Virus record (IMG/VR): IMGVR_UViG_3300030390_001438
Reading direction: 5' to 3' (one strand)
Source: an uncultured virus (IMG/VR IMGVR_UViG_3300030390_001438)
Lineage: Duplodnaviria > Heunggongvirae > Uroviricota > Caudoviricetes > Crassvirales
DNA length: 20,000 nucleotides
Below, piece by piece: positions 2,647-20,000 of the stretch (position 1 is the stretch's first letter; each line of letters starts with the position of its first letter). The notes under the pieces are model-generated. The model saw nothing but the letters and a program-made list of their open reading frames with translations, was not told the origin of the DNA and did not search any database. The position numbers were made by a program, and so were the translations under genes.

Positions 2647-2961
2647 TTAGCTTCTTTTTTTACTAATTTTTTTATCTATTTTTTCTACGGCTTTACCAAC
2701 TGCATATTCTTTAAGCATCCATTTACCTGCTTTGTATAAACCCTTTACACCAGATCCTATGTTTGCTAAATTTCCAGCAGAACCTAATCTTTTTGCTTTT
2801 AAACCTTTAGGTATATTTTTTATCAGACCTTTTTTTTTCGCAGCTATTTGCTTAGGTGTTAATTTCTTTTTTAGTTTTTTTCTTTGTACTACTTTTTTTC
2901 GTGTAGGTTGACTATCAACAACAGTTTTTTTTCTACGTTCTGATTTTTTTAATTTACTCAT
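2647..2961 (-). CDS. Small, extremely basic (Lys-rich) hypothetical protein
   Basis: 104 aa; by hand count 30 Lys + 6 Arg versus 5 acidic residues. The ATG overlaps the portal stop (TAATG at 2961), and the ORF fills the portal-scaffold gap. Confidence 0.75.
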   Translation of the reverse strand: MSKLKKSERRKKTVVDSQPTRKKVVQRKKLKKKLTPKQIAAKKKGLIKNIPKGLKAKRLGSAGNLANIGSGVKGLYKAGKWMLKEYAVGKAVEKIDKKISKKRS

Positions 2962-5396
2962 TATCGTGGATTAAATTCTGCTAAATCAAAACCATCTAAA
3001 CTATCTTCATTAGATTCAAAAGTTATTGGAGGTAAGTTTCTTTTTCTTTGCTCTATCATTTTTGATTGCTGTGAATTAGCCATAGTAATTCTGTCTGATT
3101 TTCCTTTTTCCTTACTTGCTTCTCTCTGATCAATTTGAGATTGTTCTAAACCTCTTAGTTGCATATTAAATTGGAACTCTTTATCCATTAATTGAGCTTT
3201 TAATGCAGCTTCGTTTTTAAGCTTTTCAATATCCATTGCAACCTCTTGTTGTTTTAATTGCATTTTACCTTGAATTTCCATTTGTGCTTTTTGTTGATCA
3301 GCTTGAGCCTGAGCCATTATACCAGCTTGTTGCTGTTCTGCCGCTGCTGCTTGTTGCTGTTGCATTTGTTGCATTTCTGCATCCTGCTTTCTTTTTCTTT
3401 TTACTTTTAATAATTGGTTGGCCATTTTTAAATTATGGATTTCCCTAATATCAATAGCGTCTTCTAAGCTTATATCGTTTTTAGATAAAGCCATTTGTAT
3501 ATTTTGTTCAAGCATTTGCTTTTGTTCCTCATCAGGAGACATTTCTAAGAAAATACCAAAATCATATAAATAGAAATCTTTTAAATCTTCTAATAATCTT
3601 AAATTGTATTTACCAATCTGCATAGCAAATTGATTTTTAAAATCTGAATATTGTAAAATATCTGCAGTTCTTATAATAACGCCTTCTGCCAATCTTTTAG
3701 TCATAAACAAACTACTGTTTAATATGTGTCTTGTCGCTGTGTTAGAACTAAGTGCTGCAAGTTTTTGAACGCCTACCAATGCATCTGGATTTGGGCTTGA
3801 AGCATCACGTGCTTCATTTAGTCCTGTAACAGTTCTAATCATATCCATATAATGATTATAGTTTCCTATAAGCATTTGAAGTTTACCAGCACCACTACTT
3901 GATGTTAATTGTTGAATAGGTTGTCTTGCATTATTAAATTCTCCATCTTGAGTATAAGATCTACCCACTACAGATCCAGTTTGGAAATATAATCTTAAAG
4001 CATCTTCAGGATTATAAGCATTTCCTGTTCCTAAATCTACTTCATTTAAACCATCAGCATCAATAAAGACTCCATCAGGAACAACACGAGAAACTACTTG
4101 TTGTATTTTTAAATGTGTAATTTGTATTAAGTCTGCAAAAGGAATCATTCTTCTAACTAAAGACTCGTAAACTCCTTTATACATTCTTGGCGCACAAGCT
4201 ACGTAATTTGGTAAAGCATGTTGAGATGCAGATTTAGGTCTAACCATATTTTCTGCAAGTTCCCATTTAAGTAAAATATTAGTACCCATGACCATTATAC
4301 CGTCATACCAAACTTCTATCTTTTTTTCTATTCTTTCAAATTTACCTTCCTCTTGCATTTCTGCTGGAGGATTAAATTCATCATTTTTACTTACTACTTT
4401 ATAACTTCCGTCTGCCATTTCTTTCTTCTTATAAACAAAAGAATGAGTGGTTTTATAATTAAAATATAATAAAGTAACTGTGTCACGCATAAACATACTA
4501 TTCTCATAGTATTGTGCGTTATTATAATAGTTGTACCAAGATTGACTATACTTGGATATAGTTTCCATTTCTTCATTTGTAATATCAGGTTTAATTTTAA
4601 CTAACTCCGCCATTGGAATAGTTTTAATTTCTCCCCAATAAAAACAATCTTTAAAATAAGGATCTTCTGTATAGCTGTAAACAACATTAGCTGGATCAAC
4701 ATAATCTAACTGAACACCTTGTCCAGGCAAAAATTGATGTTTTGCCATACTAACACCAAGTGTCATTAAATCATAATCACATCTTTTTCTTATTTCTTGA
4801 TATTGATTTTTATTTAAAATAGTATCTACTGCTTCTTCAGCAGCAATTTCAATAGCTGGTTTATACTTCATTTGCATAAACAACTGAAGTTCTTCGTCAT
4901 CATTAGGAAGTTCAGATTCTTCTGTTTGAAAAACATTAACTCCAAAATCTTCTTCAATTTGTTGAAATAAAGGTCGAGCTATCATTTCACCTTCTATTCT
5001 TTTTTGAAACTCATTTCTTTTTTCAGCTGACATTGCATCTTCCGCAAATGCTTTAACTTTAAAAAGTCGATCATTTAATCCATTAACCACTATGTCTACG
5101 AACTTTGGAATAACAGGAACTGGTGTCCAGTCTAAATTTAAGTAACTTAAATCTCCATCTACTGCAATTTCATTTTTATATTTAGCTACAGATTGTTCTC
5201 CACGAGCATATAGTCTAAGTCTGTTAAACTCACCCCATTGATTAAAAAACCTACATGTACTATTATCTTTTCTAAACCACTCGTACTGTATCGCCTGCCC
5301 TATTTGTAGGCCATACTCCATGGTATCTTTTTGTGCGTCAGTAACAAACTGATCAGGAAAAGCGGCTTGATTTATTTCTATATTTACCTCTTTCAT
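2961..5396 (-). CDS. Portal protein
   Basis: 811 aa, directly downstream of TerL with an ATGA overlap. Motifs such as YLNLDWTPVPVIPKFVDIVVNG and MIRTVTGLNEARDAS, plus a long Gln/Glu-rich C-terminal coiled coil (P22-like barrel), fit large podovirus/crAss-like portals. Confidence 0.88.
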   Translation of the reverse strand: MKEVNIEINQAAFPDQFVTDAQKDTMEYGLQIGQAIQYEWFRKDNSTCRFFNQWGEFNRLRLYARGEQSVAKYKNEIAVDGDLSYLNLDWTPVPVIPKFVDIVVNGLNDRLFKVKAFAEDAMSAEKRNEFQKRIEGEMIARPLFQQIEEDFGVNVFQTEESELPNDDEELQLFMQMKYKPAIEIAAEEAVDTILNKNQYQEIRKRCDYDLMTLGVSMAKHQFLPGQGVQLDYVDPANVVYSYTEDPYFKDCFYWGEIKTIPMAELVKIKPDITNEEMETISKYSQSWYNYYNNAQYYENSMFMRDTVTLLYFNYKTTHSFVYKKKEMADGSYKVVSKNDEFNPPAEMQEEGKFERIEKKIEVWYDGIMVMGTNILLKWELAENMVRPKSASQHALPNYVACAPRMYKGVYESLVRRMIPFADLIQITHLKIQQVVSRVVPDGVFIDADGLNEVDLGTGNAYNPEDALRLYFQTGSVVGRSYTQDGEFNNARQPIQQLTSSSGAGKLQMLIGNYNHYMDMIRTVTGLNEARDASSPNPDALVGVQKLAALSSNTATRHILNSSLFMTKRLAEGVIIRTADILQYSDFKNQFAMQIGKYNLRLLEDLKDFYLYDFGIFLEMSPDEEQKQMLEQNIQMALSKNDISLEDAIDIREIHNLKMANQLLKVKRKRKQDAEMQQMQQQQAAAAEQQQAGIMAQAQADQQKAQMEIQGKMQLKQQEVAMDIEKLKNEAALKAQLMDKEFQFNMQLRGLEQSQIDQREASKEKGKSDRITMANSQQSKMIEQRKRNLPPITFESNEDSLDGFDLAEFNPR

Positions 5397-7645
5397 CTAT
5401 TATTTATTCTACTGCGAGAATCAGTGTTGTTATATGTTGCAAATTTAATGCTTATTTTCGTCTTTTCTCTTGACGGTGTATATAAGTGTTTTTGATTAGC
5501 CATTATTGCTAATCCAGAGCTTATAGAAGCATCAAATTTAGTTCTATTGTTTATATCAAATTTTGCCCAATCTTCTAATGTTCTCTGAAAATAAGAATCA
5601 CCCATGTCTCCTTCTGTTCTATAAATACCACTCATATCCAATCCTACATATTTTTCTATGTAAGACTCAATAGCAGATGCGTGTGACTGCTTTACATCTT
5701 CAGAGGTGTTAGGTATACCTCCTAATTCTTTTTCAGTTTTAGAAAGTTTAGAAAAAGTTTTATCAGGTCTATTTAAAGAAAACCCTCGATAACCTCTATT
5801 TTTAAAATGATACAACAATCTTGGTTTATTATTTTCAACTAAAATTGGCATACCAAAAAATACGCATGCCATCAAAACTTCTTCAAAAAATATCTCTGCT
5901 GTTTGTGGTCGTGCAATGTATTCTAAAAAGAAATGATTGCTTGGCATCTCTTCCATTGAAAATTTTGTCAAACCATGCAAAGAACCGTTAGATCCTTTAC
6001 CAACAACAACACCTGATATATCATAAGAATCACAACCAAACGAACCTAAATGTTCATTGCCTGGAAAAAACTTGCCATTCTTTTTAATAACATTATTTTG
6101 TAACGCTACCTTTGGCATGTAAGTTACAAAAAATCTACCTCTTTTATTTGGAGTCCAAATAACCTTAGTATCTTTGATTCCATCTTTCCAACTAAACGAG
6201 CCTTGTGTTATAAAATGCTCTTTAATTAAAGAATCATTGTAATCTATTTGTTGATATATTTTTGTTAAATTAAAAATAGATTGTTTACTTTCATCTCTAA
6301 ACGCATGTGATTCTGTTCGAGGAAATTGTCTGTAAAATTCATTTAATGCATCTGGATCATTAGATAAAGAATCAACTTCGTTTTGCCAATAGTTTATAGC
6401 ACCTTGACGTATCATTTCCCCATCAATACCCAGACTGGGTAATTTCGGGTTTTCTAAAACAGGCATTCCATACTGATCTATAAATCCTTCCATATTCCAT
6501 TCCATAGGAACGAAAAGTGAATATAACCCGCTTTTAGTTTGACCATTTGAATTTCTTTTTGAAACATCAGAATCATTAAAAAGTTGTTTAAAATTTTTAC
6601 CTCCTTTATCTAAAGCATTAGACGTAGATCCCATCATACATTTTCCAATAACTTTACTACCTAATCTTAAACAAGTTTTTGTAACACGCCAATTGTTTAA
6701 TATATTATCAGGTCTTTCCCATTTACCAGATTCGTCATGGACAAGCAACTTTAATTTTTCACCATCATAACTATTGTCTCCTGTGTTTTTCCAATCAATA
6801 GTTGTATCTAATCCTTCAAGCTCTTCTGTTTCATCTATTACAAACATATTCTTTTTTGTAATTTTAGCAGCAGGAACTCTATAAGCTAATTCTGTTTTTG
6901 GTTTATCCATACCATCTTGGATGGGTTTAAAGAAAAAAGGATAATTATTAGAAATAGGAACAACTTTATCAGTAAACATTTTTTTTGCATCTGAACCAGT
7001 TTTAGATAAAATTCCTATACGTGCGTCTTTTGCAAGAGTGGCTAAGTTTACACATTCTTCAGAACCCATATATGAAAATCCTGAACGTCTAATTTTTAAA
7101 TAACAAATACCAAAACTTCTCTTATCAGCTTTACAAGCTTCCCAGTATAAATAAAATATTCTATTAGCTTCACGAAAGTCTGGTAATCCTATATCAATTT
7201 TTGTCCACTGTATATACATGTAATGAGATCCTGTTATATATGTAGGAATACCATTATTATAAAACCAATAACCAAACTCTCTTTTGTTAAATTCTTTTTC
7301 TATATAGTCAACCCATTGTTCTTTAAAACTATTAGGCATGGAATGCCACTGAAATATAGTAGATATTCTTTTAAGTGTTTTAGAATACTCTGAAGCCTCC
7401 CAGTATTGTTTTGATTTTTCAGATGATCTTTTGTGTATTTCTTTTGGAGTACTTGGAAGAGCAACTTTTAAATTATTTATATTATATATATCTCCTATTG
7501 TTCCGTCACGAGATATAATAACCATGTCGTACTTCTCATTATAACCATATTGCCAAGACCTTTTACGATTCTTTAACACCATGGCTTGTTTAGGCACAAC
7601 ACTGTTTACTTTTATATATAAACTATTTTGATTTTGATTCTGCAA
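5393..7645 (-). CDS. terL: Terminase large subunit
   Basis: 750 aa. Walker A-like LKIRRSGFS, Walker B LLVHDESGK, motif III GSTS, and RNase H-like nuclease acidic motifs FGCDSYD, VENN and FDASISSG. The predicted start is a TTG inside the upstream gene, so the start is uncertain. Confidence 0.93.
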   Translation of the reverse strand: MQNQNQNSLYIKVNSVVPKQAMVLKNRKRSWQYGYNEKYDMVIISRDGTIGDIYNINNLKVALPSTPKEIHKRSSEKSKQYWEASEYSKTLKRISTIFQWHSMPNSFKEQWVDYIEKEFNKREFGYWFYNNGIPTYITGSHYMYIQWTKIDIGLPDFREANRIFYLYWEACKADKRSFGICYLKIRRSGFSYMGSEECVNLATLAKDARIGILSKTGSDAKKMFTDKVVPISNNYPFFFKPIQDGMDKPKTELAYRVPAAKITKKNMFVIDETEELEGLDTTIDWKNTGDNSYDGEKLKLLVHDESGKWERPDNILNNWRVTKTCLRLGSKVIGKCMMGSTSNALDKGGKNFKQLFNDSDVSKRNSNGQTKSGLYSLFVPMEWNMEGFIDQYGMPVLENPKLPSLGIDGEMIRQGAINYWQNEVDSLSNDPDALNEFYRQFPRTESHAFRDESKQSIFNLTKIYQQIDYNDSLIKEHFITQGSFSWKDGIKDTKVIWTPNKRGRFFVTYMPKVALQNNVIKKNGKFFPGNEHLGSFGCDSYDISGVVVGKGSNGSLHGLTKFSMEEMPSNHFFLEYIARPQTAEIFFEEVLMACVFFGMPILVENNKPRLLYHFKNRGYRGFSLNRPDKTFSKLSKTEKELGGIPNTSEDVKQSHASAIESYIEKYVGLDMSGIYRTEGDMGDSYFQRTLEDWAKFDINNRTKFDASISSGLAIMANQKHLYTPSREKTKISIKFATYNNTDSRSRINNR

Positions 7646-9263: not shown

Positions 9264-9794
9264 TTAAAATGAATTTCCTGCAGTCAAAACTCTATAATAA
9301 ACATTAACAAACATTTTTCCATCTCCTTGTGTAGGATTGGCTGATGTTTTTAAGTTTAAAGCTTGTCCTGGCGATAGGGTTATGGTGTTTCCACTTCCTA
9401 CCATAACTTTGCGAACACTATTAGCAGCACTGTTTAGTACTAATAAAGGTAAAGTTCCCATTACTACAGAGTTATAATCAAATGTTACGTTAGCTCCAAA
9501 ATCAAAAACTGTAGTTCCAGGAACAAAATTAATGGCAATAGATAAAATATCTATAACCTTGTTTGCTCCAGGAGATGCAATTAAAACTTTAGATGTAGTA
9601 GCTAAGTTTTGTAACTGTGCTGATGTAACCTCTACATGAGCAACCAACGTGTCTATTCCAAATAATGCTTGTAGCTGATTAATAGTACAAGTTTTAGTCA
9701 TTAATTGATTTACTTTATCAGTTAAAATTAAGTAATCATCTCCAACTAAATTAAGTATTTCGGGATATGCCGTTGTGTTACTTATTCTTGCCAT
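9264..9794 (-). CDS. Putative virion structural/decoration protein
   Basis: 176 aa, beta-rich C-terminal region. The N-terminus MARISNTTAYP...DDYLILTD...TK parallels the N-terminus of the 241-aa protein at 18214-18939. Confidence 0.6.
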   Translation of the reverse strand: MARISNTTAYPEILNLVGDDYLILTDKVNQLMTKTCTINQLQALFGIDTLVAHVEVTSAQLQNLATTSKVLIASPGANKVIDILSIAINFVPGTTVFDFGANVTFDYNSVVMGTLPLLVLNSAANSVRKVMVGSGNTITLSPGQALNLKTSANPTQGDGKMFVNVYYRVLTAGNSF

Positions 9795-10108: not shown

Positions 10109-10441
10109 CTATATGGAATCTTCCCACGTAAAAAACAACTCTTCATTTACTGGATTTTGTTGACTTGATATTTCTGCAGAAATAGTTGCTTTCATTTCAT
10201 CTACATCTAAAGATCCTTCTAACCAACCTATAACAACGTCTTCAAACTCTTTCGTATTTTCATACGGAACAAAAGGATCACCAGCTTTATAAGTGAAGTC
10301 TTCTTCTCCATTTTCAGCACTCATATAAGTGTTTTCTTCTCCTACATAAGTCCACTGTACTTTGTGTATTACATTGCTTTCGCCCTCTGATTCAACATAA
10401 GCATCCATTTGTGAGATATCCCATTTATAATTAATTGCCAT
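10109..10441 (-). CDS. Acidic fibre-associated protein
   Basis: 110 aa, MAINYKWDISQMD...NVIHKVQW...FVPYEN...VIGWL. Starts 4 bp after the S74 fibre stop. Resembles small proteins commonly encoded after S74-bearing fibres in aquatic phages. Confidence 0.65.
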   Translation of the reverse strand: MAINYKWDISQMDAYVESEGESNVIHKVQWTYVGEENTYMSAENGEEDFTYKAGDPFVPYENTKEFEDVVIGWLEGSLDVDEMKATISAEISSQQNPVNEELFFTWEDSI

Positions 10442-10445
10442 AATT

Positions 10446-13400
10446 TTATTTTTCTAATTGATCTATTCTTGATTTTAAATCTTCTATCATTGCTTGTTGT
10501 TCCTTTACTGCATTTATTAGTACAGCAGTTAACTCTGAGTATGCTACTGACTTAAGTCCATCATCTTCGTTTTCTAAAATAAGTTCTGGTAAAACTGCTT
10601 CTACCTCTTGTGCTATAACACCAACTTTAGTAACCTCTGTATTGAAATCAGTTCTATTATAATAAACGCCTCGCATTGCTTGAACCTTACTAATACAGTC
10701 ATCTATTTCTACTACATTTTCTTTAATTCTTATATCAGAATTTTGTGTCAACGTACCGTTAATAGTCATGTTAGCAGTTGAAGGGAAGAATCTATATCTA
10801 ATAGAACCTCCATCTCTCCAAAATACATTACCACAATTCATGTCAAAATAAGTGTCAATGTTATTTGTATGAAACCTAAAGTGATTAGCTGTTGCGTTAT
10901 TTCCTAAATAGAAATCACCTACTCCAGAACTTGTTTTTACTAACGATGTTCCGTTTACATGAAATTTTGCTTGTGGTGTTACACCAATACCACAATCTTG
11001 ATTAATGATTGTAGCAAAATTACTTACAGTTATTCTGGAAGTTCCACCTGTAGCAAATTGCATATTATCACTACCACCTCTAAACATACCAGTGTTTGTA
11101 TCACTTGTAAAAGATATAGATGGTTGAGAAGCACTTCCACTTGTATATCGACCACGACCTGCTACAATATTTCCTACCGCTTCAAGGTTTCCTTGTGATC
11201 TAATGTTTGTAGATACGTTTAATTCAGATCCATTAGCATCGAGTCTTACATCAAAATCAGATGTACCTGAGTTGTCCTTGTGAAAATCTATGTATCTACC
11301 TATTTCAGTTACAGCACCAACAATCGCTACTCCACCATTATGCCACGATCCACTTACTGGTTTTAATAGGCTAATAGTACCTGTACTTGTGATTGTTCCA
11401 CCTAATACAGGTGATGATGTAGCAATTGACGTAACTCCCGAAGAAGTTTTAAATCCTGCATCGTTATCCATGATACTTAAAGGTAGGTCTACAAATTGTC
11501 CTTTTTTACTGTCACCACCTCCAGAAGAATCAGCTCCATACATGTAATAATCGTCACCATCAGGAGAGCTTCCGTTAGGAGCTGCCATAACTATTGAATC
11601 ACCACCTGTGTAATCCACATTCAATGTAACACTTCCACTTGAACCACCACCAGTTAATCCACTACCAGCATTTACTGCCGTAATATCTCCTACATTAGTT
11701 GTAAAACCTCTGCCATTAGTAAGTTGATTGTTGTTAGTAATAGTACAGTTTAAAGTAACAGAACCAGAAGTACCACCACCTGACATCCCTGTCCCTGCAG
11801 TAACTGCTGTTATATCACCTGCATTAGTTGTATATCCTGAATTATTAGTCCATTGAGATATATTACCACCTTTGTTTGTAAATGTCTGAGAATTTGAGGC
11901 TGTCGTTGTACCTGTGTTAGTTGTAAAACCTCTACCGTTAGTTAATTGAGTATTATTTGAAAGAGTACAATTTAATGTAACTGCTCCACTTGTACCTCCT
12001 CCAGACATATTTGTACCAGCAGCAACACTGGTTATATCACCTGAGTTATTTGAAAAAGGTAAGTTGCTTATTACAGATTTATATACATTACCAGTAGATG
12101 CGCTACTTACCATTAGTCTATCCGAACCAGATAATGTACCTGTAGCTTCAGTAGGTGATTGCAATATTATATTATCACTACCTAAGTAATCTACACTTAC
12201 TGTTGGCGTTCCACTCGATCCACCACCAGTTAATCCACTACCTGCAGTTATACCGTCTATATCTCCAGTTCCACCTGTTGATACAGCAGTAACTCTACCA
12301 TATGCATCTACAGAAATTGTATCAATTTTAGTTGAATTACTTGAAGAACCATAAGTACCCGATCCTATTCCACCAGTTGCCATATTAAGTGTAACTGCTC
12401 CACTTGAACCACCTCCAGTTAAATTTGTTCCTGCGCTAACACTGGTTATATCACCTACATTAGTTGTATATCCTGCGCCATTTGTAATAGCATTGTTATT
12501 TAATGATATATTAGCAGTACCGTTAAATGATACACCAGCTATAGTTCTTGCTGTCTTTAGTTGTTCTGCATTTCTTGAAAGATCTACTCTAACTCCATAA
12601 GTTAGAGATCCATTCCAACCCATTAATGTAGGGTAAGTTCCTGTCCAAGGAACTGATGGGTTAGTATTACTTACAGAAGTTCCTTGCGGAGAGGTGCCAT
12701 TAGAAGCATCAAATATAGTATGGTTATTTCCATAATGTTTCCACATCATCTGACCAATAACAGAAGTATCTGTAACACCTTTGTAATTAGTTCTGCCTGT
12801 TGAAAATTTAGTTGCCGTAGCTGCATTACCACTTATACTACTCCCTGAAGTTATATAACCTGAATTATTTGACCATTGGCTTATATTACCTGACTTATTT
12901 GTAAATGTCTGTGAGTTAGAAGCAGTTGTAGTACCAGTGTTAGTAGTAAAACCTCTTCCATTTGTTAATTGATTGTTATTAGTAATAGTACAATTTAAAG
13001 TAACTGTTCCACTCGTTCCACCACCTGACATCCCTGTCCCTGCAGTAACACCAGTTATATCTCCAACGTTAGATGTAAATCCTGCGTCATTACTAAATAT
13101 ACTTAAACCTATTTCACCCGCACGTTTTCTTCTTTCAGCACTACTATCTAATACTATGAACTCGTCATTAGTATTCATACCTGCTGTCATATCTGTAAAT
13201 TCAGATAAATCTAAAGTTAAAGCAATTGTTTTGGCAGATGATTGATTAAGAGTAAAACTGGTTGCTCCATCTAAACCTGTCCCTGTGGTTATTGTTATCG
13301 TAGGATTATTAACAGTTGGTAATGATGCTGAAGTTATATATCCACTATTGTTATTCCACTGAGAAATGTTACCACTTTTATTAGTAAAGGTTTGAGTGTT

Positions 13401-15971
13401 TGATGGAGTAGTTGTACCTGTATTTGTAGTAAAACCTCTTCCGTTAGTTAACTGTGTGTTATTTGTTATTGTGTTGCTAATAGTAAGAGTACCTCCACTT
13501 GAAGTAGAAGTTAGTTCTGTCTGTATACCTGCACCTTGAGCAAAAGTTACTGTTTCACCATTTGTTACTGTACTTGTCTCTGTACCATTACCTTCTTTAA
13601 GCGTCCAAGAAGACATACTTCCTACAGCTGTATTATCTACTTTTGTCCATGTTGTGTTAGCAAATACAGCCCAATCACCTATTTGCCAATCTGTAATACC
13701 GTTTAAGTTTGTACTACCTGCAACCGCTACTATATAATAATCTCCTGACGTACCTACATTACTTGCTAATGTTGGTGTGTTTGTACTTGCGTTCCATGTA
13801 CCTTCAAATTGTAATACTCCAGTTAGAGCTGTATTAATAGCTGATTGTATTTGCGCTCCTGTTGCTAAGTTACCAGAAGATAAATTTACTGTGCCAGTTA
13901 TTGGTGTTACAGTTGTAGTTGTACCACTACTTATGGACATTGTAGATAAATTACCTGAGTTTACTTGATTAACTTGTCCTGTAGATCCTGTAGATACACC
14001 AGTTACTCTACCATATGCGTCTACTATAATACTATCTATTTTAGTGCTATCGGATGAAGAACCATAAGATCCAGCTCCTACACCACCAGTTGCCATGTTA
14101 ATAGTAATTGTTTCATTAATACCCTGATTAGTTGTAAAATTACCACCAGTAGTTAAATTTGTACCTGCAGCTATAGTTATAGTTGCGTTGTTTACTGTAG
14201 GTAAAGATGCTGACGTTATATAGCCAGAGTTATTAGTCCATTGAGATATATTACCACTTTTGTTTGTAAAGGTTTGTGTATTACTTGCAGTTGTTGTACC
14301 TGTGTTAGTTGTATATCCCGAATTATTTACAAATTGAGATATATTGTTACTTGCTAAACCTAATGTTACTGAACCAGATGTGCCTCCACCTGTTAATTTA
14401 TTTCCTGCGACTACCGCAGTGATATCACCTTGAGGTACACCTGCAACAGCATTATCTACATATGTTTTATTTGCTGCGTCAGTTCCAGAACTTACTGTAT
14501 CTACGCCGCGAATTCTTCCTGTGCCACCTAAAACCAATGCACCACCATTTATTAATAATGTTCCTGCAGTGTCTATAGACAATCTTTCATTAGGCTCGTC
14601 ATTTACAAAAAAGTCTAATGTCTCACTGCTTGAATCAAATTTAATTGCAGCTCTTTGGGAAGTACCTGCTTGTGTATCAGTAAAAACAATTCCTGCTTGA
14701 GTTTCTGCTGTATTAGCAATTATTAAATTTTTTGTGTCTCCTGATATTGTAACATTGTCACTAAAAGTTTTAGCACCACCTATTGATTGTGTGCCTGAAG
14801 TTCTAACAACTGTACTATCTACTAATAATCCTGTAGATGATTGTGATAATCCATCACCAGCTCCTACAGTTAAAGTACCTGTTGAGGTTATTGTTCCTCC
14901 AGATATTCCATTTCCAGTTGCAACAGATGTTACACCTTGGGCGTCACCATTAGCTGATATAGACGTAACGTGTCCTGTAGCATTTACTGTTACAGTAGCT
15001 CTTGCATATGAACCTGCAGTCACACCTGAATTAGCATGTGCAATTGTAACCGATCCACTTGATCCACCCCCAGTTATTGGAGATGTTGTAGAAACATTTG
15101 TTATATCACCTGCATTATTGGTAAAAGGTAAATTGCTTATTACAGATTTAAATACATTGCCAGTAGAATTACTACTTAACATTAATCTATCTGATGTAGA
15201 TAACGTTCCAGTAGCTTCAGTCGGTGCATCTAAAATAATGTTATCACTACCTAAGTAGTCTACGTTTATTGTAGGTGTTCCACTTGATCCTCCTCCTGAT
15301 AAACCTAAACCAGCAGTAATACCATCTATATCTCCTGTACCTCCTGTACTTATGGCGGTTATTCTACCATAAGCATCTACAGTTATATTATCTATTTTAA
15401 CAGAGTTTGCTGTTGAGCCATAACTTCCAGCTCCAATACCTCCTGTGGCCATATTTAACGTAACACTACCTGAAGTACCTCCTCCTGTCAAATTTGTACC
15501 AGCATTTACTGCTGTTATATCTCCAACATTAGTTGTAAATCCTGCGTCATTGTTAAATATACTTAACCCTATTTCGTTAGCTGCTTTTCTACGTTCTGCA
15601 CCAGAATCTAAAACTATAAATTCATCAGTTCCAATCATTGCAGCTGTCATATCTGTAAGTTCAGATAAATCTAACGTTATTGAAAATGATCCTGAAGTAG
15701 TAATAGTTCCACCCCCATCTAAACCTGTGCCTGTTGAAAGACCTACACTTGTTACAGTTCCTTGTGGATTACTAAATGAAGTGGTTAATGTTCCACCATC
15801 TTGTTGCGTAAGCGTAAGAGTTATCGTAGAACTACCAGAGTCACTAAAGCCTGTTATAGAATTAGCGTAGCCAGTATTCCACTGAGTCGAATTACCACCA
15901 GGAGCTGTTATAACTCCTGTTGTGCTTAATGTGCCGTCTATTGACTGGTCTCTTAAAAATCTAATTGCCAT
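10446..15971 (-). CDS. Long repetitive fibre protein with C-terminal peptidase S74 intramolecular chaperone
   Basis: 1841 aa, Gly/Thr/Ser/Asn-rich with many internal repeats. The C-terminal domain has SDIRIKEN (SDxRxK autocleavage site, Ser codon at 10737-10739), GVIAQEVEAVLPE, V.Y..L...LI.AVKE and a terminal coiled coil. Confidence 0.92.
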   Translation of the reverse strand: MAIRFLRDQSIDGTLSTTGVITAPGGNSTQWNTGYANSITGFSDSGSSTITLTLTQQDGGTLTTSFSNPQGTVTSVGLSTGTGLDGGGTITTSGSFSITLDLSELTDMTAAMIGTDEFIVLDSGAERRKAANEIGLSIFNNDAGFTTNVGDITAVNAGTNLTGGGTSGSVTLNMATGGIGAGSYGSTANSVKIDNITVDAYGRITAISTGGTGDIDGITAGLGLSGGGSSGTPTINVDYLGSDNIILDAPTEATGTLSTSDRLMLSSNSTGNVFKSVISNLPFTNNAGDITNVSTTSPITGGGSSGSVTIAHANSGVTAGSYARATVTVNATGHVTSISANGDAQGVTSVATGNGISGGTITSTGTLTVGAGDGLSQSSTGLLVDSTVVRTSGTQSIGGAKTFSDNVTISGDTKNLIIANTAETQAGIVFTDTQAGTSQRAAIKFDSSSETLDFFVNDEPNERLSIDTAGTLLINGGALVLGGTGRIRGVDTVSSGTDAANKTYVDNAVAGVPQGDITAVVAGNKLTGGGTSGSVTLGLASNNISQFVNNSGYTTNTGTTTASNTQTFTNKSGNISQWTNNSGYITSASLPTVNNATITIAAGTNLTTGGNFTTNQGINETITINMATGGVGAGSYGSSSDSTKIDSIIVDAYGRVTGVSTGSTGQVNQVNSGNLSTMSISSGTTTTVTPITGTVNLSSGNLATGAQIQSAINTALTGVLQFEGTWNASTNTPTLASNVGTSGDYYIVAVAGSTNLNGITDWQIGDWAVFANTTWTKVDNTAVGSMSSWTLKEGNGTETSTVTNGETVTFAQGAGIQTELTSTSSGGTLTISNTITNNTQLTNGRGFTTNTGTTTPSNTQTFTNKSGNISQWNNNSGYITSASLPTVNNPTITITTGTGLDGATSFTLNQSSAKTIALTLDLSEFTDMTAGMNTNDEFIVLDSSAERRKRAGEIGLSIFSNDAGFTSNVGDITGVTAGTGMSGGGTSGTVTLNCTITNNNQLTNGRGFTTNTGTTTASNSQTFTNKSGNISQWSNNSGYITSGSSISGNAATATKFSTGRTNYKGVTDTSVIGQMMWKHYGNNHTIFDASNGTSPQGTSVSNTNPSVPWTGTYPTLMGWNGSLTYGVRVDLSRNAEQLKTARTIAGVSFNGTANISLNNNAITNGAGYTTNVGDITSVSAGTNLTGGGSSGAVTLNMATGGIGSGTYGSSSNSTKIDTISVDAYGRVTAVSTGGTGDIDGITAGSGLTGGGSSGTPTVSVDYLGSDNIILQSPTEATGTLSGSDRLMVSSASTGNVYKSVISNLPFSNNSGDITSVAAGTNMSGGGTSGAVTLNCTLSNNTQLTNGRGFTTNTGTTTASNSQTFTNKGGNISQWTNNSGYTTNAGDITAVTAGTGMSGGGTSGSVTLNCTITNNNQLTNGRGFTTNVGDITAVNAGSGLTGGGSSGSVTLNVDYTGGDSIVMAAPNGSSPDGDDYYMYGADSSGGGDSKKGQFVDLPLSIMDNDAGFKTSSGVTSIATSSPVLGGTITSTGTISLLKPVSGSWHNGGVAIVGAVTEIGRYIDFHKDNSGTSDFDVRLDANGSELNVSTNIRSQGNLEAVGNIVAGRGRYTSGSASQPSISFTSDTNTGMFRGGSDNMQFATGGTSRITVSNFATIINQDCGIGVTPQAKFHVNGTSLVKTSSGVGDFYLGNNATANHFRFHTNNIDTYFDMNCGNVFWRDGGSIRYRFFPSTANMTINGTLTQNSDIRIKENVVEIDDCISKVQAMRGVYYNRTDFNTEVTKVGVIAQEVEAVLPELILENEDDGLKSVAYSELTAVLINAVKEQQAMIEDLKSRIDQLEK
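11620..15690 (-). repeat. Intragenic modular repeats within the 1841-aa fibre
   Basis: The GDIT.V.AG..L/M.GGG.SG.VTLN-type unit occurs about 10 times. TTNTGTTT.SN.QTFTNK.GNISQW.NNSGY occurs 4 times (approx. 14215-14320, 13335-13440, 12850-12960, 11830-11935). LDLSE.TDMTA...DEFIVLDS.AERRK.A.EIGLSIF.NDAGF occurs twice (approx. 15520-15680, 13065-13220). A ~130-aa MATGG...VDAYGR...VDYLGSDNIIL...SNLPF block occurs twice (approx. 15100-15460, 12040-12385), with a partial third copy (approx. 13985-14100). Confidence 0.9.
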
Positions 15972-15991
15972 AAGCTATTTAATTAAAATTA

Positions 15992-18199
15992 TTAAACAGT
16001 CTTACTAATCAATACTCTTACGTCATTAGTTGCTATAGGACTGTTTGTTGTTATTGTTATTTGTGATGTGCTATTTCTTACAACTTGAGCATATACTGTA
16101 TCATATGTACTGTTATCATATAATTGAACTACTACATCTCTTGTTCCTAAATTATGTGTTACAACATAAGTTGTAGCAGATGCGTTACCAATGTTAGTAG
16201 CAAACGTTAAATCTGAAGCTACACATGTTTCAACGGCTGCACAAAAATCTGTTACTTGAGATGCTACTATTGCAATGTTTTGCTCTGAAGCTGCTGTTGC
16301 AACACCAGTTTTATTAAAAGTAATTGACGCAGTTTTACCAGCCGTTCCAACCGCTCCTGCTACTCCTCGATCTACAAGTTGTACAAAACCATTTGAAGTT
16401 GCAGTAAACGATCCATTATCAAATCCAGCAACACCTTTTACAGTTGCTCCGTCAGAAGCTCCTGCAGCAGCGATACTTTGTCCAGATTGTACTACCGTAT
16501 AATCCGATGCACTTGGCGTTGAACTTGCTGCTATTGCATTATTTGCAAATATTAAATCTCCAACTTCTAAAATTACTCCTAAGAACGTTGTATTGTTTGA
16601 GTCTGTTACAGCAAAGTAATCACCTTGATCTAAAGCTACGTTACTTCCTCCAGTTAAAGCTGGACTATTTGTTATTGCGTTATATCCTCCTTGGAATATT
16701 CCAACACCAGCAGCTATTCCTTGTACCTGTGCTAAGTTAACACCATCTGTACCTGCAGTACCAGTTTTAACATTTAATAATTTATTGTTTCCAAAATCTA
16801 CATCTCCTTCGGCATCACCAAATTGTTGTAGATGAACATCTTGAAGTAATATTTTTTGTTCTGAATTTAAAGAAGTAACAAAAGGTAGGAAATCTCCTGC
16901 TCCCATTGCTGTTAATGTTCCTAATTCCTCTAAAGCTAAATTAACAGTAATAACTTGCGCTCCTGCAATACCTGTTGTAATACCAGTACCACCAGCAATA
17001 TCTACAACTTCACCATTTGTTACTGTTTGGTCTGTACCACTATCTGCACGTGCTGTCCAACTTGACATTGAACCAGTACCACCAGTATAAGCAACAGTTA
17101 CTGTACCACTACCATTATTAGTAGTAGACATGTTTGCACCTGCAGCAATAGTTATTGTGTCAAGATTAGTAATATTTGAGTCACTACCACTTGTAGCCGC
17201 TAAAGTTATTCTGTTAAACGGTAAAGAGTTTGTAATAGTTATAGTGTCAGTAGCTGAAGCCGCTGTCGTTATACCAGTTCCTTGTAAAAAAGAAGCAGTG
17301 TTGCCGTTTGTAATTGTTTGTGGAGTACCACTTGATCCTGCAAGAGTCCAAGAAGTCATTGTTCCTGATCCACCATTTGCAGCAGCCGTAATTCTACCTT
17401 GAGCATCAACCGTAATATCTGCTGAGGTATAAGCTCCTGCAGTAACTGCGGTATTATCTAAGTTTATTGTAACTGTATCAGTTGCACTTACTACTGAAGT
17501 TAATGCAGTACCACCAGCAATATCAACAGTGTTTCCACTTGCTACACCCTGTATTGTACCAGAGTCAGCGTTTAAATTCCAACCAGAATAATTATCAAAA
17601 GGTAAAAGACTAATAGTTGCATCCACAACATTAGAAGTACCATTATCACTTACCAGTATTTTATCTGAACCAGAAAGTGTTGAAGATGCCGAACTTGGTG
17701 CGGCTAAAACTACGTTATCTGCTCCTAAGTAATCAACTGCCATATCATCAGCGTTAGCTGTTAAACCAGCTCCACCTATAACATTTAAAGTAGGTATCGG
17801 GCCAGATAAATCTGTACCTGTCATACCGCTACCAGCTACTATTGCTGTTATATCCCCTTGAGGTATTGATGGAAATGTTGTTAAATTACCTGCACCATCA
17901 ATATATTGAGAAGCTGAACCAACAAGAGTTATAGCTAAAGTTCCTGATCCTGTAATAGGAGAACCAGCTACACTAAAAGCATTACCACCATGAGATTGAG
18001 CTACAGATGTAACAGAACCTCCACTTGTTCCAAAAGTTTGCCAGTTAGAACCATCGTAATATTTCATTACATTAGTATCTGTTCTGTATATCATTTGTCC
18101 TTCGCCTACTACTGAAGGATCTGCGGAAAGATTTTGAACTTTAAAATTCTGTAATTCTCCGTTCGTTAAGTCGATGTTTGATAAATATCTTATTGCCAT
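15992..18199 (-). CDS. Fibre protein (735 aa)
   Basis: Gly/Thr/Ala/Ser-rich. N-terminal EGQMIYRTDTNVMKYYDGSNW motif, typical of trimeric fibre necks. Shares several modules with the 1841-aa fibre and ends in a VVTHNL beta domain. Confidence 0.85.
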   Translation of the reverse strand: MAIRYLSNIDLTNGELQNFKVQNLSADPSVVGEGQMIYRTDTNVMKYYDGSNWQTFGTSGGSVTSVAQSHGGNAFSVAGSPITGSGTLAITLVGSASQYIDGAGNLTTFPSIPQGDITAIVAGSGMTGTDLSGPIPTLNVIGGAGLTANADDMAVDYLGADNVVLAAPSSASSTLSGSDKILVSDNGTSNVVDATISLLPFDNYSGWNLNADSGTIQGVASGNTVDIAGGTALTSVVSATDTVTINLDNTAVTAGAYTSADITVDAQGRITAAANGGSGTMTSWTLAGSSGTPQTITNGNTASFLQGTGITTAASATDTITITNSLPFNRITLAATSGSDSNITNLDTITIAAGANMSTTNNGSGTVTVAYTGGTGSMSSWTARADSGTDQTVTNGEVVDIAGGTGITTGIAGAQVITVNLALEELGTLTAMGAGDFLPFVTSLNSEQKILLQDVHLQQFGDAEGDVDFGNNKLLNVKTGTAGTDGVNLAQVQGIAAGVGIFQGGYNAITNSPALTGGSNVALDQGDYFAVTDSNNTTFLGVILEVGDLIFANNAIAASSTPSASDYTVVQSGQSIAAAGASDGATVKGVAGFDNGSFTATSNGFVQLVDRGVAGAVGTAGKTASITFNKTGVATAASEQNIAIVASQVTDFCAAVETCVASDLTFATNIGNASATTYVVTHNLGTRDVVVQLYDNSTYDTVYAQVVRNSTSQITITTNSPIATNDVRVLISKTV

Positions 18200-18213
18200 T
18201 TTATTATGTTTAC

Positions 18214-18939
18214 TTAGTTAAAAAATGCTTTTCCTGAAAAAGCAGATTTAAAGGTTATTGTTACTTGGTTTAAACTGTTATACTCTACTTCTCCATATAC
18301 TGTTGTATTTGCCGAGTCTACTACTGATACTGATGGATACTTATTTAAATTATGAGTAACCACCCATGTTGATGCAGGAGTGTTCTGTGTAAATACAAAG
18401 TTTTTGTCTGCTGCTGCTGTAGCATTATATTGCAACAAAGATATAAAATAATCTTCGTTCTTCTTTAAGCTACCGTTGCCAGCTTTGAAGGTTAATGTAA
18501 TGTCGTAAAAGTCGTTATTGGAAGGGTCTTTTGCTTCATTATCCCATTGAAATATTGCCCATTGACTTATGTCATCACATTGAGTAAGAAGTATAGTGCT
18601 TGTTTTAAATGGAGAATTATATAAAGCTGATATATCTATAGGCGGTGTAGATTGATTGCTGTAAGAATCAAACTTGCTCAATACAAATGTATTAATTCCA
18701 CTAAATTGTACTACATCTGCACCAAATGGATCAAAACTTATAGTCGCTGCTTTTAATACACCCTGATTTTGATATGTATATCTTAGTAATTGATTTTGAC
18801 CTGCTCTTGCATTTATAAAATCAGCAACATCTCCTGCAGTAAAGTTTTTGGTTTGAAAACTGTTTTGAGAGTCAGAACCAATCCATTTATCTGCTGATAC
18901 TATATTTACATCATTAGGGTACGTTGCTATTCTTGCCAT
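18214..18939 (-). CDS. Putative fibre adaptor / structural protein (241 aa)
   Basis: N-terminal MARIATYP...DKWIGSD...TKNFT module. C-terminal FVFTQNTPASTWVVTHNLNKYPSVSVVD...VTITF domain similar to the C-terminus of the 735-aa fibre. Confidence 0.7.
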   Translation of the reverse strand: MARIATYPNDVNIVSADKWIGSDSQNSFQTKNFTAGDVADFINARAGQNQLLRYTYQNQGVLKAATISFDPFGADVVQFSGINTFVLSKFDSYSNQSTPPIDISALYNSPFKTSTILLTQCDDISQWAIFQWDNEAKDPSNNDFYDITLTFKAGNGSLKKNEDYFISLLQYNATAAADKNFVFTQNTPASTWVVTHNLNKYPSVSVVDSANTTVYGEVEYNSLNQVTITFKSAFSGKAFFN

Positions 18940-18942
18940 TTG

Positions 18943-19401
18943 TTATTTTTTTATTGATTGCCCTTTTTCATAACTACGCCCTCCGAAGTATGCCGCAACA
19001 ATTGTAATAAGAAGCATTTTTAAAAGTTCTTTCCATTCACTATCCACTGCAAAGTTAATAAATCCTGAATCAATAAAGATAAGCAAGATTGTACTTATTA
19101 AAACAAAGGCTAAAGATAGTGGTCTAATTGATTTAGAAAGCTTATTATCTGATGACATATCTGAAGACCATCTTTTTGACACCTCTTGTAATTCAGTGTT
19201 TTGATGATCATATATCATTTGTTGAAGTTTTATTTTATCTTCAACAGATATTTTTGATTCTGTGATTGCTTGTATAGCTTCTTTAGGAGACAAAACTCCT
19301 TCAAGTAATTTTCCTAAAGAAGGATTGATTACATGAGCAGCTCCCATTAATATTTTTCCTAAAGTAGAATCTTTAAATTTTTTTTTCTTTTTGTCTGGCA
19401 T
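18943..19401 (-). CDS. Holin, 3TM (GTA_holin_3TM-like) family
   Basis: 152 aa with RW..DM.SD..LSK.IRP, two hydrophobic segments (LSLAFVLISTILLIFI; LLKMLLITIVAAYF) and a terminal YFGGRSYEK, the pattern typical of this holin family. Confidence 0.75.
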   Translation of the reverse strand: MPDKKKKKFKDSTLGKILMGAAHVINPSLGKLLEGVLSPKEAIQAITESKISVEDKIKLQQMIYDHQNTELQEVSKRWSSDMSSDNKLSKSIRPLSLAFVLISTILLIFIDSGFINFAVDSEWKELLKMLLITIVAAYFGGRSYEKGQSIKK

Positions 19402-19659: not shown

Positions 19660-20000
19660 TTACCAAATTGCTAAACAATTTTTACCTGCGGCTGCATCTG
19701 TACCAGTAGCGTATAATTGTACTACTTGAACTGGTAAATATTTGCCTACTGGAAAATTACTAAATGTAACTATACTTCCAGCTATTGTTTTTACTTTAAC
19801 ATCAACATAAGATTTTGCTACATCCATAGTAGCATCACTACTTCCTACATATAATAAACATCCTTCAGAAGAATCTATTCTTGACGAACCGTTAGGGCCT
19901 CCTAAAAATATTTTATAATTATCATCCCAAGTTTCACTTCCATCAAACAAAGTATCTGAAAGAGTTAAATCTACTTCACTGTTTATAGCAGTAACAGTTG
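19660..20000 (-). CDS. Virion protein with RcGTA Rcc01079-like (head spike base) C-terminal domain; 5' end truncated
   Basis: The frame is open beyond the track's TTG at 19950 to the window edge (...TVTAINSEVDLTLSDTLFDG...). The C-terminus LYVG...VKVKTIAGSIVTFSNFPVGKYLPVQVVQLYATGT...LAIW matches from memory the LYVG..G...V.....G..VTF.NVP.G..LP.RV.RV.ATGTTA..IV.L pattern of that family. Confidence 0.6.
   Translation of the reverse strand, partial: TVTAINSEVDLTLSDTLFDGSETWDDNYKIFLGGPNGSSRIDSSEGCLLYVGSSDATMDVAKSYVDVKVKTIAGSIVTFSNFPVGKYLPVQVVQLYATGTDAAAGKNCLAIW

What the first reader, a model, noticed from the sequence alone, without database searches (positions are those of the whole stretch)
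10446..18939. Possible daisy-chain fibre system: C-terminal 'VVTHNL' domains each followed by a gene starting MAIR[YF]L
Seen: the 241-aa protein ends in TWVVTHNLNKYPSVSVVDSANTTVYGEVEYNSLNQVTITF (approx. 18214-18400), and the next gene starts MAIRYL. That 735-aa protein ends in a similar domain, TYVVTHNLGTRDVVVQLYDNSTYDTVYAQVVRNSTSQITIT (approx. 15992-16200), and the next gene starts MAIRFL. The last gene lacks the THNL domain and ends in an S74 chaperone. Inference: THNL domains act as sockets for the MAIR[YF]L N-terminal peptide of the next subunit. This would join three separately encoded trimers (241+735+1841 aa) end to end into one very long, extensible fibre whose order follows gene order. 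I know of no description of this plug-and-socket grammar.
Basis: partly seen in the sequence, partly recalled or inferred. Interest (0 to 1): 0.75.

Follow-up and report, generated by a model that had tools for sequence, protein, structure and literature searches.

The report
Plug-and-socket joints between phage fibre genes
Three neighbouring fibre genes of a Bacteroidota-type short-tailed phage appear to clip together through a small end domain on one protein and a short start peptide on the next; this joint recurs in hundreds of uncultured phages but has no name yet.

Summary
The 241-aa and 735-aa proteins each end in a related beta-sandwich ("THNL") domain (45% identity over 49 aa, E=7e-6). 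The next genes start MAIRYL and MAIRFL, and the 1841-aa protein ends in a Peptidase_S74 chaperone.

The first joint is well supported.
- All 50 testable IMG/VR loci found through the 241-aa protein have a gene with the same about 55-aa N-terminal domain behind the THNL-A gene (48 next, 2 second next).
- Of 80 loci found through that N-terminal domain, 76 have a THNL-A gene directly upstream.
- THNL-A proteins carry 19 unrelated N-terminal parts, as expected of an adaptor.
- A 3:3 complex prediction scored 0.92 (best control 0.00). Residues 1-8 of the fibre lie against an edge strand of THNL-A.

The second joint (735-aa end to 1841-aa start) rests on gene-order statistics only. One lineage keeps the end domain with no plug gene behind it.

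The general grammar is already known from Klebsiella, K1-5, G7C and CBA120 phages and, for end-to-end assembly, from the T4 long tail fibre. This domain pair has no Pfam family or sequence relative in the PDB, and I found no paper on it. I rate it a new variant of a known kind. Binding is predicted, not shown.

The parts
18214..18939 (-). Gene 1 (P0001, 241 aa): proposed fibre adaptor with anchor, middle beta domain and THNL-A socket
   Evidence: ORF and translation. 20 full-length relatives aligned at 34-72% identity. AlphaFold2 model with mean pLDDT 80.2 shows three parts.
18805..18939 (-). N-terminal putative virion anchor of P0001 (residues 1-45, MARIxTY..DKWIGsD..TKNF)
   Evidence: Conserved in the P0001 family. 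The motif also starts other fibre-like proteins in relatives and the 176-aa protein at 9264-9794 (41% over 37 aa, E=1e-4). That it is an anchor is inferred.
18424..18795 (-). Middle beta domain of P0001 (residues 49-172)
   Evidence: Model pLDDT 81-93 per 10-residue block over residues 51-170. Only middling fold matches (Z up to 6.1). BFVD matches to C-terminal parts of collagen-repeat fibre proteins.
18217..18411 (-). THNL-A domain (residues 177-241), the proposed socket
   Evidence: Profile hit E=5e-38. Domain model with mean pLDDT 87 over the 77-aa fragment. In the library search, 9600 representatives reach E<=1e-3, and in single-domain proteins the domain ends at the last residue. Predicted interface residues are 206, 208, 212-217, 229-232 and 234.
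15992..18199 (-). Gene 2 (P0002, 735 aa): proposed middle fibre segment
   Evidence: ORF and translation. No Pfam hit. PHROG hits to unknown-function and virion structural families.
18035..18199 (-). Plug2 domain of P0002 (residues 1-55); the docking strand is residues 1-8 (18176-18199)
   Evidence: Conserved N-terminal domain in 29 aligned gene-2 proteins. The profile sits at the N-terminus in 141 of 144 genes that hit it. Residues 1-8, 12 and 14 form the predicted interface.
15995..16249 (-). THNL-B domain of P0002 (residues 651-735), proposed second socket
   Evidence: THNL-B profile E=4e-41, residues 651-734. Related to THNL-A (E=7e-6). The edge-strand motif TVY is shared with the THNL-A interface strand.
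10446..15971 (-). Gene 3 (P0003, 1841 aa): proposed distal fibre segment
   Evidence: ORF and translation. PHROG tail fibre families. Repeats shared with P0002. No THNL domain.
15927..15971 (-). Plug3 of P0003 (residues 1-15, MAIRFLRDQSIDGTL)
   Evidence: Genes after THNL-B genes start with M[AS]I[KR]F[LK]-like peptides. All 4 distinct N-terminal P0003-like starts have a THNL-B gene upstream.
10578..10739 (-). Peptidase_S74 intramolecular chaperone domain of P0003 (residues 1745-1798)
   Evidence: PF13884, E=2.2e-11, 44.3 bits against a cut-off of 22.

Best explanation
The three genes encode the parts of one modular virion fibre of a Bacteroidota-type podophage. P0001 is an adaptor. Its N-terminal motif, shared with other fibre-like proteins, fixes it to the virion (inferred). 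Its C-terminal THNL-A beta-sandwich is a socket. The first eight residues of P0002 (MAIRYLSN) lie as an added strand against the edge strand T212-E217 of THNL-A (predicted). P0002 is an extension piece with a conserved start, a variable middle and a conserved THNL-B end. THNL-B most likely receives the N-terminal strand of P0003 in the same way (inferred from gene order only). P0003 carries the distal, variable part. Its S74 chaperone helps folding and is expected to be cut off, as is established for that family. Gene order equals assembly order. The joint is a reusable cassette found in many unrelated phages.
For: Forward test: in all 50 testable of the 51 IMG/VR loci found with P0001, a gene with the plug2 domain follows the THNL-A gene, directly in 48 and after one inserted small gene in 2 (L007, L018). 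L047 holds only the end of its THNL-A gene, and the next gene there starts just behind the match; I did not read its start.
Reverse test: of 80 loci found with a plug2 N-terminus alone, 76 have a THNL-A gene (E<1e-10) directly upstream, 3 have it two genes further up, and 1 has no upstream DNA.
In the pooled set (the window plus the 131 loci), 136 THNL-A proteins fall into 19 clusters with unrelated N-terminal parts and lengths of 79-411 aa. In every cluster a plug2 gene follows: 133 next, 2 second next, 1 at a contig end. That is the modular pattern expected of an adaptor.
Regex test on distinct adjacent gene pairs: 78 of 90 after THNL-A, 41 of 75 after THNL-B and 24 of 538 after other genes. 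Fisher p=2e-64 and 2e-26, not corrected for relatedness.
Complex prediction (THNL-A x3 with P0002 residues 1-60 x3): scores 0.93, 0.92 and 0.92, best of 3 controls 0.00, partner pLDDT at least 93, and the runs agree in all contacts of the smaller set. That mark was reached by 116 of 157 solved complexes and 2 of 215 mismatched pairs. These counts hold only roughly here, because my own alignments and a 3:3 design were used.
No like complex turned up by sequence in the PDB.
Second joint: all 4 distinct N-terminal P0003-like starts, plus L255, have a THNL-B gene upstream. The interface strand motif TVY is kept in THNL-B. Gene 2 ranges from 298 to 880 aa in the loci, between conserved ends. Gene 3 proteins end in many different ways.
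L015 carries the plug2 start and the gene-3 tip on one chain and lacks both THNL-B and plug3.
A four-gene chain exists in L111 and L146.
A gene-2 homologue, R5C gp040 (386 aa), was detected in purified virions (Table S8 of PMC12014285).
Against: No binding has been measured. The complex score is the model's own confidence, and the design lay outside the tool's calibration.
At least 20 distinct gene pairs of one lineage have THNL-B with no plug gene behind it; the next gene starts MGLRDRIA. THNL-B therefore has some role without a partner, or its partner is encoded elsewhere.
THNL domains also occur in tandem arrays of 2-9 copies inside single fibre proteins, so the fold is a general fibre building block and not a dedicated socket.
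The plug starts of P0002 and P0003 are nearly identical, so P0003 might bind THNL-A instead.
The loci are related to each other, so the p-values overstate independence.
R5C gp040 was only 0.01% of the virion signal, and gp039 and gp041 were not listed.
Whether these are tail, neck or head fibres is open: in R5C the cassette follows the portal gene, and one PHROG hit is labelled head decoration.
Confidence: 0.55

Rival explanations
1. Branched or alternative-cargo model. Both P0002 and P0003 plug into the THNL-A socket of P0001, on different P0001 trimers or in competition. This gives two kinds of fibre on one adaptor. THNL-B at the end of P0002 is then a distal tip or cap, not a socket.
For: The predicted interface uses residues 1-8, 12 and 14 of P0002, and P0003 shares residues 1-6 with a Y-to-F change. 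Across genomes, plug2 and plug3 starts are similar. One lineage has a terminal THNL-B with no following plug gene. Branched systems with one adaptor and two receptor-binding proteins are the known precedent (PMC6872550 passages).
Against: THNL-B is conserved across phages whose gene-2 middles differ, which is unusual for a receptor-binding tip. Genes starting like plug3 follow THNL-B genes far more often than other genes (41 of 75 against 24 of 538). Plug3 lacks the rest of the plug2 domain. The interface strand motif TVY is kept in THNL-B.
Confidence: 0.2
2. THNL domains are generic Ig-like fibre or carbohydrate-binding modules. The conserved gene order only reflects a cassette that is inherited together. 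The N-terminal motifs serve trimer initiation or attachment to another virion part.
For: Only middling fold matches to many beta-sandwich domains, with no specific relative: Z at most 6.6 and no Foldseek hit at E<=0.001. Tandem THNL arrays exist inside single proteins. The loci are not independent.
Against: 19 unrelated N-terminal contexts of THNL-A are all followed by plug2, so the link holds at the level of domains and not of whole genes. In every single-stretch row among the 150 best library hits, THNL-A ends at or within 2 residues of the last residue. The complex prediction scored 0.92 against 0.00 for the best of 3 controls; that mark was reached by 116 of 157 solved complexes and 2 of 215 mismatched pairs, counts that hold only roughly for this 3:3 design with my own alignments.
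Confidence: 0.12
3. P0001 is a transient assembly factor (fibre chaperone) that holds the N-terminus of P0002 during folding and is not part of the virion.
For: It is small and lies next to a fibre gene, and the predicted binding would fit a chaperone too. In the R5C virion proteome the THNL-A protein gp039 is not listed although gp040 is.
Against: Known fibre chaperones are as a rule encoded downstream of the fibre and act on its C-terminal part (from my own knowledge). P0001 shares its N-terminal motif with other fibre-like proteins, which fits a virion anchor. In L111 and L146, THNL-A proteins are themselves chained.
Confidence: 0.08

Closest known systems
Branched receptor-binding protein systems: an anchor and a T4gp10-like branching domain on RBP1 or an adaptor, plus a conserved N-terminal docking peptide on RBP2 (K1-5 gp37, G7C gp66/gp63.1, CBA120 TSP1-4, Klebsiella phages KP32, K11, KP34)
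   Same: One protein carries a virion anchor and a small beta docking domain. The next protein has no anchor but a short conserved N-terminal peptide that is needed for docking. The parts are modular and exchangeable. Sources: passages of PMC6872550 and the abstract of PMC13352976.
   Different: Here the docking domain sits at the extreme C-terminus, so the geometry would be end to end and not a side branch. It recurs at the end of the second protein, allowing a series. No sequence relation to solved T4gp10-like domains was found. The fold likeness to CBA120 TSP4 is only middling: Z 5.4, rmsd 1.8 A, 54 residues aligned with the whole-protein model, and Z 4.3-4.6 with the domain model. The plug is the start of a domain of about 55 aa.
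Phage T4 long tail fibre, gp34-gp35-gp36-gp37 (from my own knowledge)
   Same: Separately encoded fibre segments are joined end to end, in the order of the genes.
   Different: No sequence similarity was seen: Pfam and PHROGs gave no T4 fibre family for P0001 or P0002. The T4 joints are not described as an Ig-like end domain plus an N-terminal strand, and T4 has no reusable cassette spread across unrelated phages.
Endosialidase-type tailspikes and fibres with a C-terminal Peptidase_S74 intramolecular chaperone
   Same: P0003 ends in this domain (PF13884).
   Different: This concerns only the folding of the last segment, not the joints.

Membership tests
Anchor / branching-domain / conserved-peptide RBP systems (T4gp10-like) | The first protein carries a conserved N-terminal virion anchor | tested here: inconclusive
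   The N-terminal motif is conserved in the family and shared with other fibre-like proteins, including the window's 176-aa protein. Attachment to the virion was not tested.
Anchor / branching-domain / conserved-peptide RBP systems (T4gp10-like) | The docking domain is homologous to T4 gp10 domains 2 and 3 | tested here: inconclusive
   A profile search of PDB sequences found no phage protein. VIA-align against CBA120 TSP4 residues 187-249 gave Z 5.4, rmsd 1.8 A, 54 residues aligned, and Z 4.3-4.6 with the domain model, which is within the range of common beta-sandwich matches.
Anchor / branching-domain / conserved-peptide RBP systems (T4gp10-like) | The second protein lacks the anchor and starts with a conserved docking peptide | tested here: met
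   29 gene-2 proteins share the N-terminal domain. The profile sits at the N-terminus in 141 of 144 genes that hit it.
Anchor / branching-domain / conserved-peptide RBP systems (T4gp10-like) | The docking domain and the peptide bind each other physically | not testable with these tools
   Prediction only: score 0.92, best of 3 controls 0.00. That mark was reached by 116 of 157 solved complexes and 2 of 215 mismatched pairs, counts that hold only roughly here.
T4-type serial long tail fibre | Separately encoded segments are joined end to end in gene order | tested here: inconclusive
   The gene order socket-then-plug is conserved. The first joint is predicted; the second joint was not modelled.
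T4-type serial long tail fibre | Homology to gp34, gp35, gp36 or gp37 | tested here: not met
   No such Pfam family matched any of the three proteins. The only such PHROG hit is phrog_33119 ('long tail fiber protein distal subunit'), which matches P0003 residues 1732-1840, the S74 end region.
Peptidase_S74 (intramolecular chaperone of endosialidase-like fibres) | Pfam PF13884 match above the gathering score at the C-terminus | tested here: met
   P0003 residues 1745-1798, 44.3 bits against a cut-off of 22, E=2.2e-11. Self-cleavage was not tested.

The most novel reading that the evidence does not exclude
THNL end domains and their matching N-terminal strands form a general, ordered connector code of environmental phages. 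Type A takes plug2 and type B takes plug3, so that fibres of two, three or four separately encoded segments assemble in gene order and can be lengthened or re-tipped by swapping one gene. The plug strand may mimic the first strand of the next domain in a tandem THNL array; in that case the joint would be a THNL array split between genes.
Probability: 0.3. Interest if true: 0.75.

Novelty: new variant of a known kind. Interest (0 to 1): 0.6.

Why it matters
If the joint is real, it gives a simple rule for reading fibre architecture straight from the gene order of uncultured phages. The plug2 domain alone matched more than 590 IMG/VR stretches. The end domain has 9600 cluster representatives at E<=1e-3. 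The rule would say which protein is adaptor, which is extension and which is tip, and so where host specificity sits. It would also add a C-terminal, serial connector to the known N-terminal, branching connectors of Klebsiella and E. coli phages. The family has no Pfam entry, no sequence relative in the PDB and only unnamed clusters in the ESM Atlas.

Tried and rejected
- Fold searches of the whole P0001 model and of the THNL-A domain model gave no clear relative. Foldseek found nothing at E<=0.001 in the PDB. VIA-align gave a best Z of 6.6 and 6.0, to a neuraminidase C-terminal domain, among many Ig-like and phage neck, tailspike and tripod domains. I therefore do not call the fold T4gp10-like.
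- PDB sequence searches with P0001, P0002 and the THNL-A profile found nothing relevant.
- A second IMG/VR scan with the THNL-A alignment returned the same contigs as the first and added nothing.
- A scan with the plug2 alignment was not run by the tool because the alignment had no conserved stretch. I used a single plug2 sequence instead.
- The scan with the first 80 residues of P0003 mostly hit an internal fibre repeat. Of 61 distinct ORFs in the table, only 5 had the match at the N-terminus, 4 of them with upstream DNA in the locus (6 further loci gave no ORF).
- No natural fusion of THNL-B with a following plug3 fibre was found in my loci. L015 is a bypass, not a fusion.
- My simple regexes miss obvious plug variants, including the window's own P0003. 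The counts for THNL-B are therefore underestimates.
- Paper searches for this domain pair found nothing. Subscription journals are not covered.
- This scan's notes hold nothing for this genome or for this sequence.
Full report
**What the window is.** All long ORFs lie on the minus strand. The terminase large subunit (5393-7645) and the portal protein (2961-5396) match PHROG families at E=1e-169 and 3e-141. The terminase is 70% identical to that of an uncultured podovirus record (MW202828). It is about 44% identical to those of Flavobacterium elemoviruses, and the same search also hit Cellulophaga, Tenacibaculum and Maribacter phages. G+C is 26-40%. The window is therefore part of a Bacteroidota-type podophage genome. 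Read in the direction of transcription, the order is:
- a holin-like gene (18943-19401);
- the three genes of the finding;
- a DUF7936 gene, several small genes and a GroES-like gene;
- then terminase and portal.

**Observation.**
- The two end domains are related: 22 of 49 residues are identical, E=7e-6.
- P0003 has Peptidase_S74 at residues 1745-1798 and no THNL domain.
- P0002 and P0003 share internal fibre repeats (E=1e-17). At the N-terminus they share only MAIR[YF]L.

**The first joint in other genomes.** A scan of IMG/VR with P0001 gave 51 loci.
- In all 50 testable loci, a gene with a conserved N-terminal domain follows the THNL-A gene. It follows directly in 48 and after one inserted small gene in 2 (L007, L018).
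- The domain is about 55 aa long, with the consensus MAIKFLxNIxLxxNELQNxxxQNLxxDPxxxxxGQIIYNT..KYY.G..W.
- L047 holds only the end of its THNL-A gene. The next gene there starts just behind the match; I did not read its start.
- The proteins that carry THNL-A differ. Some are 233-252 aa with the MARIxTY..DKWIGTD start of P0001. Others are 100-151 aa or 389 aa with other starts.

In the reverse direction, a scan with one plug2 N-terminus found more than 590 relatives, of which 80 loci were kept.
- 76 of the 80 have a THNL-A gene (E<1e-10) directly upstream.
- 3 have it two genes further up.
- 1 has no upstream DNA.

Pooling the window with both sets (131 loci), 136 THNL-A proteins fall into 19 clusters with unrelated N-terminal parts. 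A plug2 gene follows in every cluster: 133 next, 2 second next, 1 at a contig end. The plug2 profile was built from 29 of these sequences, so the count is partly circular. The two scans themselves are independent of each other.

In the 1.84-billion-protein library the 72-aa THNL-A domain has 9600 hits at E<=1e-3 and 3299 at E<=1e-10. In every single-stretch row among the 150 best, the match ends at or within 2 residues of the last residue. The multi-stretch rows are tandem arrays.

**Structure and complex.** The AlphaFold2 model of P0001 (mean pLDDT 80.2) shows four stretches:
- a weakly predicted N-terminal part;
- a beta domain (about residues 49-172);
- a low-confidence linker (171-178);
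- the THNL-A sandwich (181-240).

The domain modelled alone, as a 77-aa fragment, reaches mean pLDDT 87. Fold searches give only middling matches to Ig-like domains. Among them are CBA120 TSP4 residues 187-249 (Z 5.4, rmsd 1.8 A, 54 residues aligned), the TP901-1 and Tuc2009 tripods, and several phage neck proteins. I take the fold as a common beta sandwich and leave the T4gp10 question open.

The complex job used THNL-A x3 with P0002 residues 1-60 x3 and my own alignments.
- It scored 0.93, 0.92 and 0.92, against 0.00 for the best of three controls.
- The partner pLDDT was at least 93, and the three runs agreed in all contacts of the smaller set.
- The mark was reached by 116 of 157 solved complexes and 2 of 215 mismatched pairs. 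These counts hold only roughly here, because the design differs from the calibration.
- The confident interface joins P0002 residues 1-8, 12 and 14 to P0001 residues 206, 208, 212-217, 229-232 and 234. The N-terminal peptide lies along the edge strand TTVYGE.
- The THNL motif itself (195-198) is not in the listed interface.
- No like complex turned up by sequence in the PDB, so a pass from memory is unlikely.
- This supports binding but does not show it.

**The second joint.** Gene 2 proteins nearly always end in THNL-B (40 genes in the first set).
- The next gene usually starts with a related short peptide (M[AS]I[KR]F[LK].D..VDG, MKF[KL].DIE, MA.RFLNNI.IND and so on), and after it the proteins diverge.
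- A loose regex matches 41 of 75 distinct pairs after THNL-B, against 24 of 538 after other genes (p=2e-26, not corrected for relatedness).
- The regex misses obvious cases, the window's own P0003 among them, so the true share is higher.
- In the scan with the P0003 start, all 4 distinct N-terminal matches, plus L255, have a THNL-B gene upstream.
- Gene 2 has conserved ends and a middle that varies from 298 to 880 aa in the loci, while gene 3 ends in many different ways. This fits an extension piece followed by a variable tip.
- The interface strand motif TVY is kept in THNL-B, typically as ETVYADV.
- L015 carries the plug2 start (85% identical to L008 gene 2) and the L008 gene-3 tip (93%) on one chain. 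It lacks both THNL-B and plug3.
- L111 and L146 show a four-gene chain.

Evidence against the second joint:
- At least 20 distinct pairs of one lineage have a THNL-B subtype (ending YRVVVH[AG]) followed by an unrelated gene.
- The joint was not modelled.
- The near identity of the two plug starts leaves room for a branched arrangement.

**Cultured carriers.** The cassette occurs in Dinoroseobacter phage R5C (gp039, gp040, gp041), directly after the portal gene. It also occurs in Streptococcus phage T12 and its relatives (gp61, gp62), after the endolysin. R5C gp040 (386 aa) is listed in the virion proteome at 0.01% with 9.6% coverage; gp039 and gp041 are not listed (Table S8 of PMC12014285). 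So at least the middle piece is a minor virion protein. Where it sits on the virion is unknown.

**Comparison with what is known.** Three elements of the logic are described for K1-5, G7C, CBA120 and Klebsiella phages: an anchor, a small docking domain and a conserved N-terminal docking peptide (passages of PMC6872550). The logic was validated by engineering in KP32, K11 and KP34 (abstract of PMC13352976). End-to-end assembly in gene order is known from the T4 long tail fibre (my own knowledge). The differences here are:
- the socket sits at the extreme C-terminus;
- it recurs on the second protein;
- the family is unnamed: no Pfam hit, and only unnamed clusters in the Atlas;
- the cassette is spread over many phage types.

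My paper searches found no description of it. Earlier notes of this scan describe similar unnamed joints in other genomes. I did not check whether they are the same family.

**Verdict.** The first joint is likely (about 0.75). The full three-part serial fibre is about even odds (0.55 including its variants). It is a new variant of a known kind, of moderate to good interest.

Noticed in passing
window 9264-9794 (-): A 176-aa protein starts MARIS.. and shares its first 37 residues or so with P0001 (41% identity, E=1e-4). It may be a second short fibre that uses the same virion anchor. Relatives have similar extra anchor-type genes.
   Followed up: partly
L179 3650-5006 (Streptococcus phage T12, NC_028700): The THNL-A / plug2 / THNL-B cassette (gp61, gp62) also occurs in Streptococcus pyogenes and S. 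dysgalactiae prophages. There it lies after the endolysin and two genes before the annotated speA, far from the tail genes.
   Followed up: partly
L180 4791-8442 (Dinoroseobacter phage R5C, NC_041921): The cassette (gp039-gp041) lies directly after the portal gene and a 106-aa gene. gp040 is in the published virion proteome at 0.01%. The fibre may therefore sit near the neck or head and not on the tail tip.
   Followed up: partly
L111 1359-3706 and L146 1209-3715: A chain of four genes. A THNL-A protein is followed by a 175-182-aa protein with a plug2-like start and its own THNL-A end. Then comes a plug2..THNL-B fibre, then a gene starting MLKFL or MKFL.
   Followed up: partly
L189, L221, L240 (upstream genes of the matches): Fibre genes starting MAINFL or MSINLI follow proteins that end ..INFVGSxIxQGTYxxxIxR. 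This may be a third THNL-like end type that my profiles did not detect. L050 and L053 have similar ends.
   Followed up: no
window 10109-10441 (-): A DUF7936 gene (PF25590, E=1.5e-16) follows the fibre genes here, and similar small genes follow them in L033, L034 and L038. Its role is unknown. Its start MAINYKW resembles the plug only by chance or distantly.
   Followed up: no
window 19660-19950 (-) and upstream genes in most loci: A small protein ending ..LPVQVVxL..TGT....IAIW (phrog_12296, labelled tail fiber protein, E=1e-4) is conserved a few genes upstream of the cassette in many loci.
   Followed up: no
P0004, P0005, P0007, P0012, P0023 (library proteins): THNL domains also form tandem arrays of 2 to 9 copies inside single fibre-like proteins. 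In P0023, four copies precede an S74-like end.
   Followed up: partly
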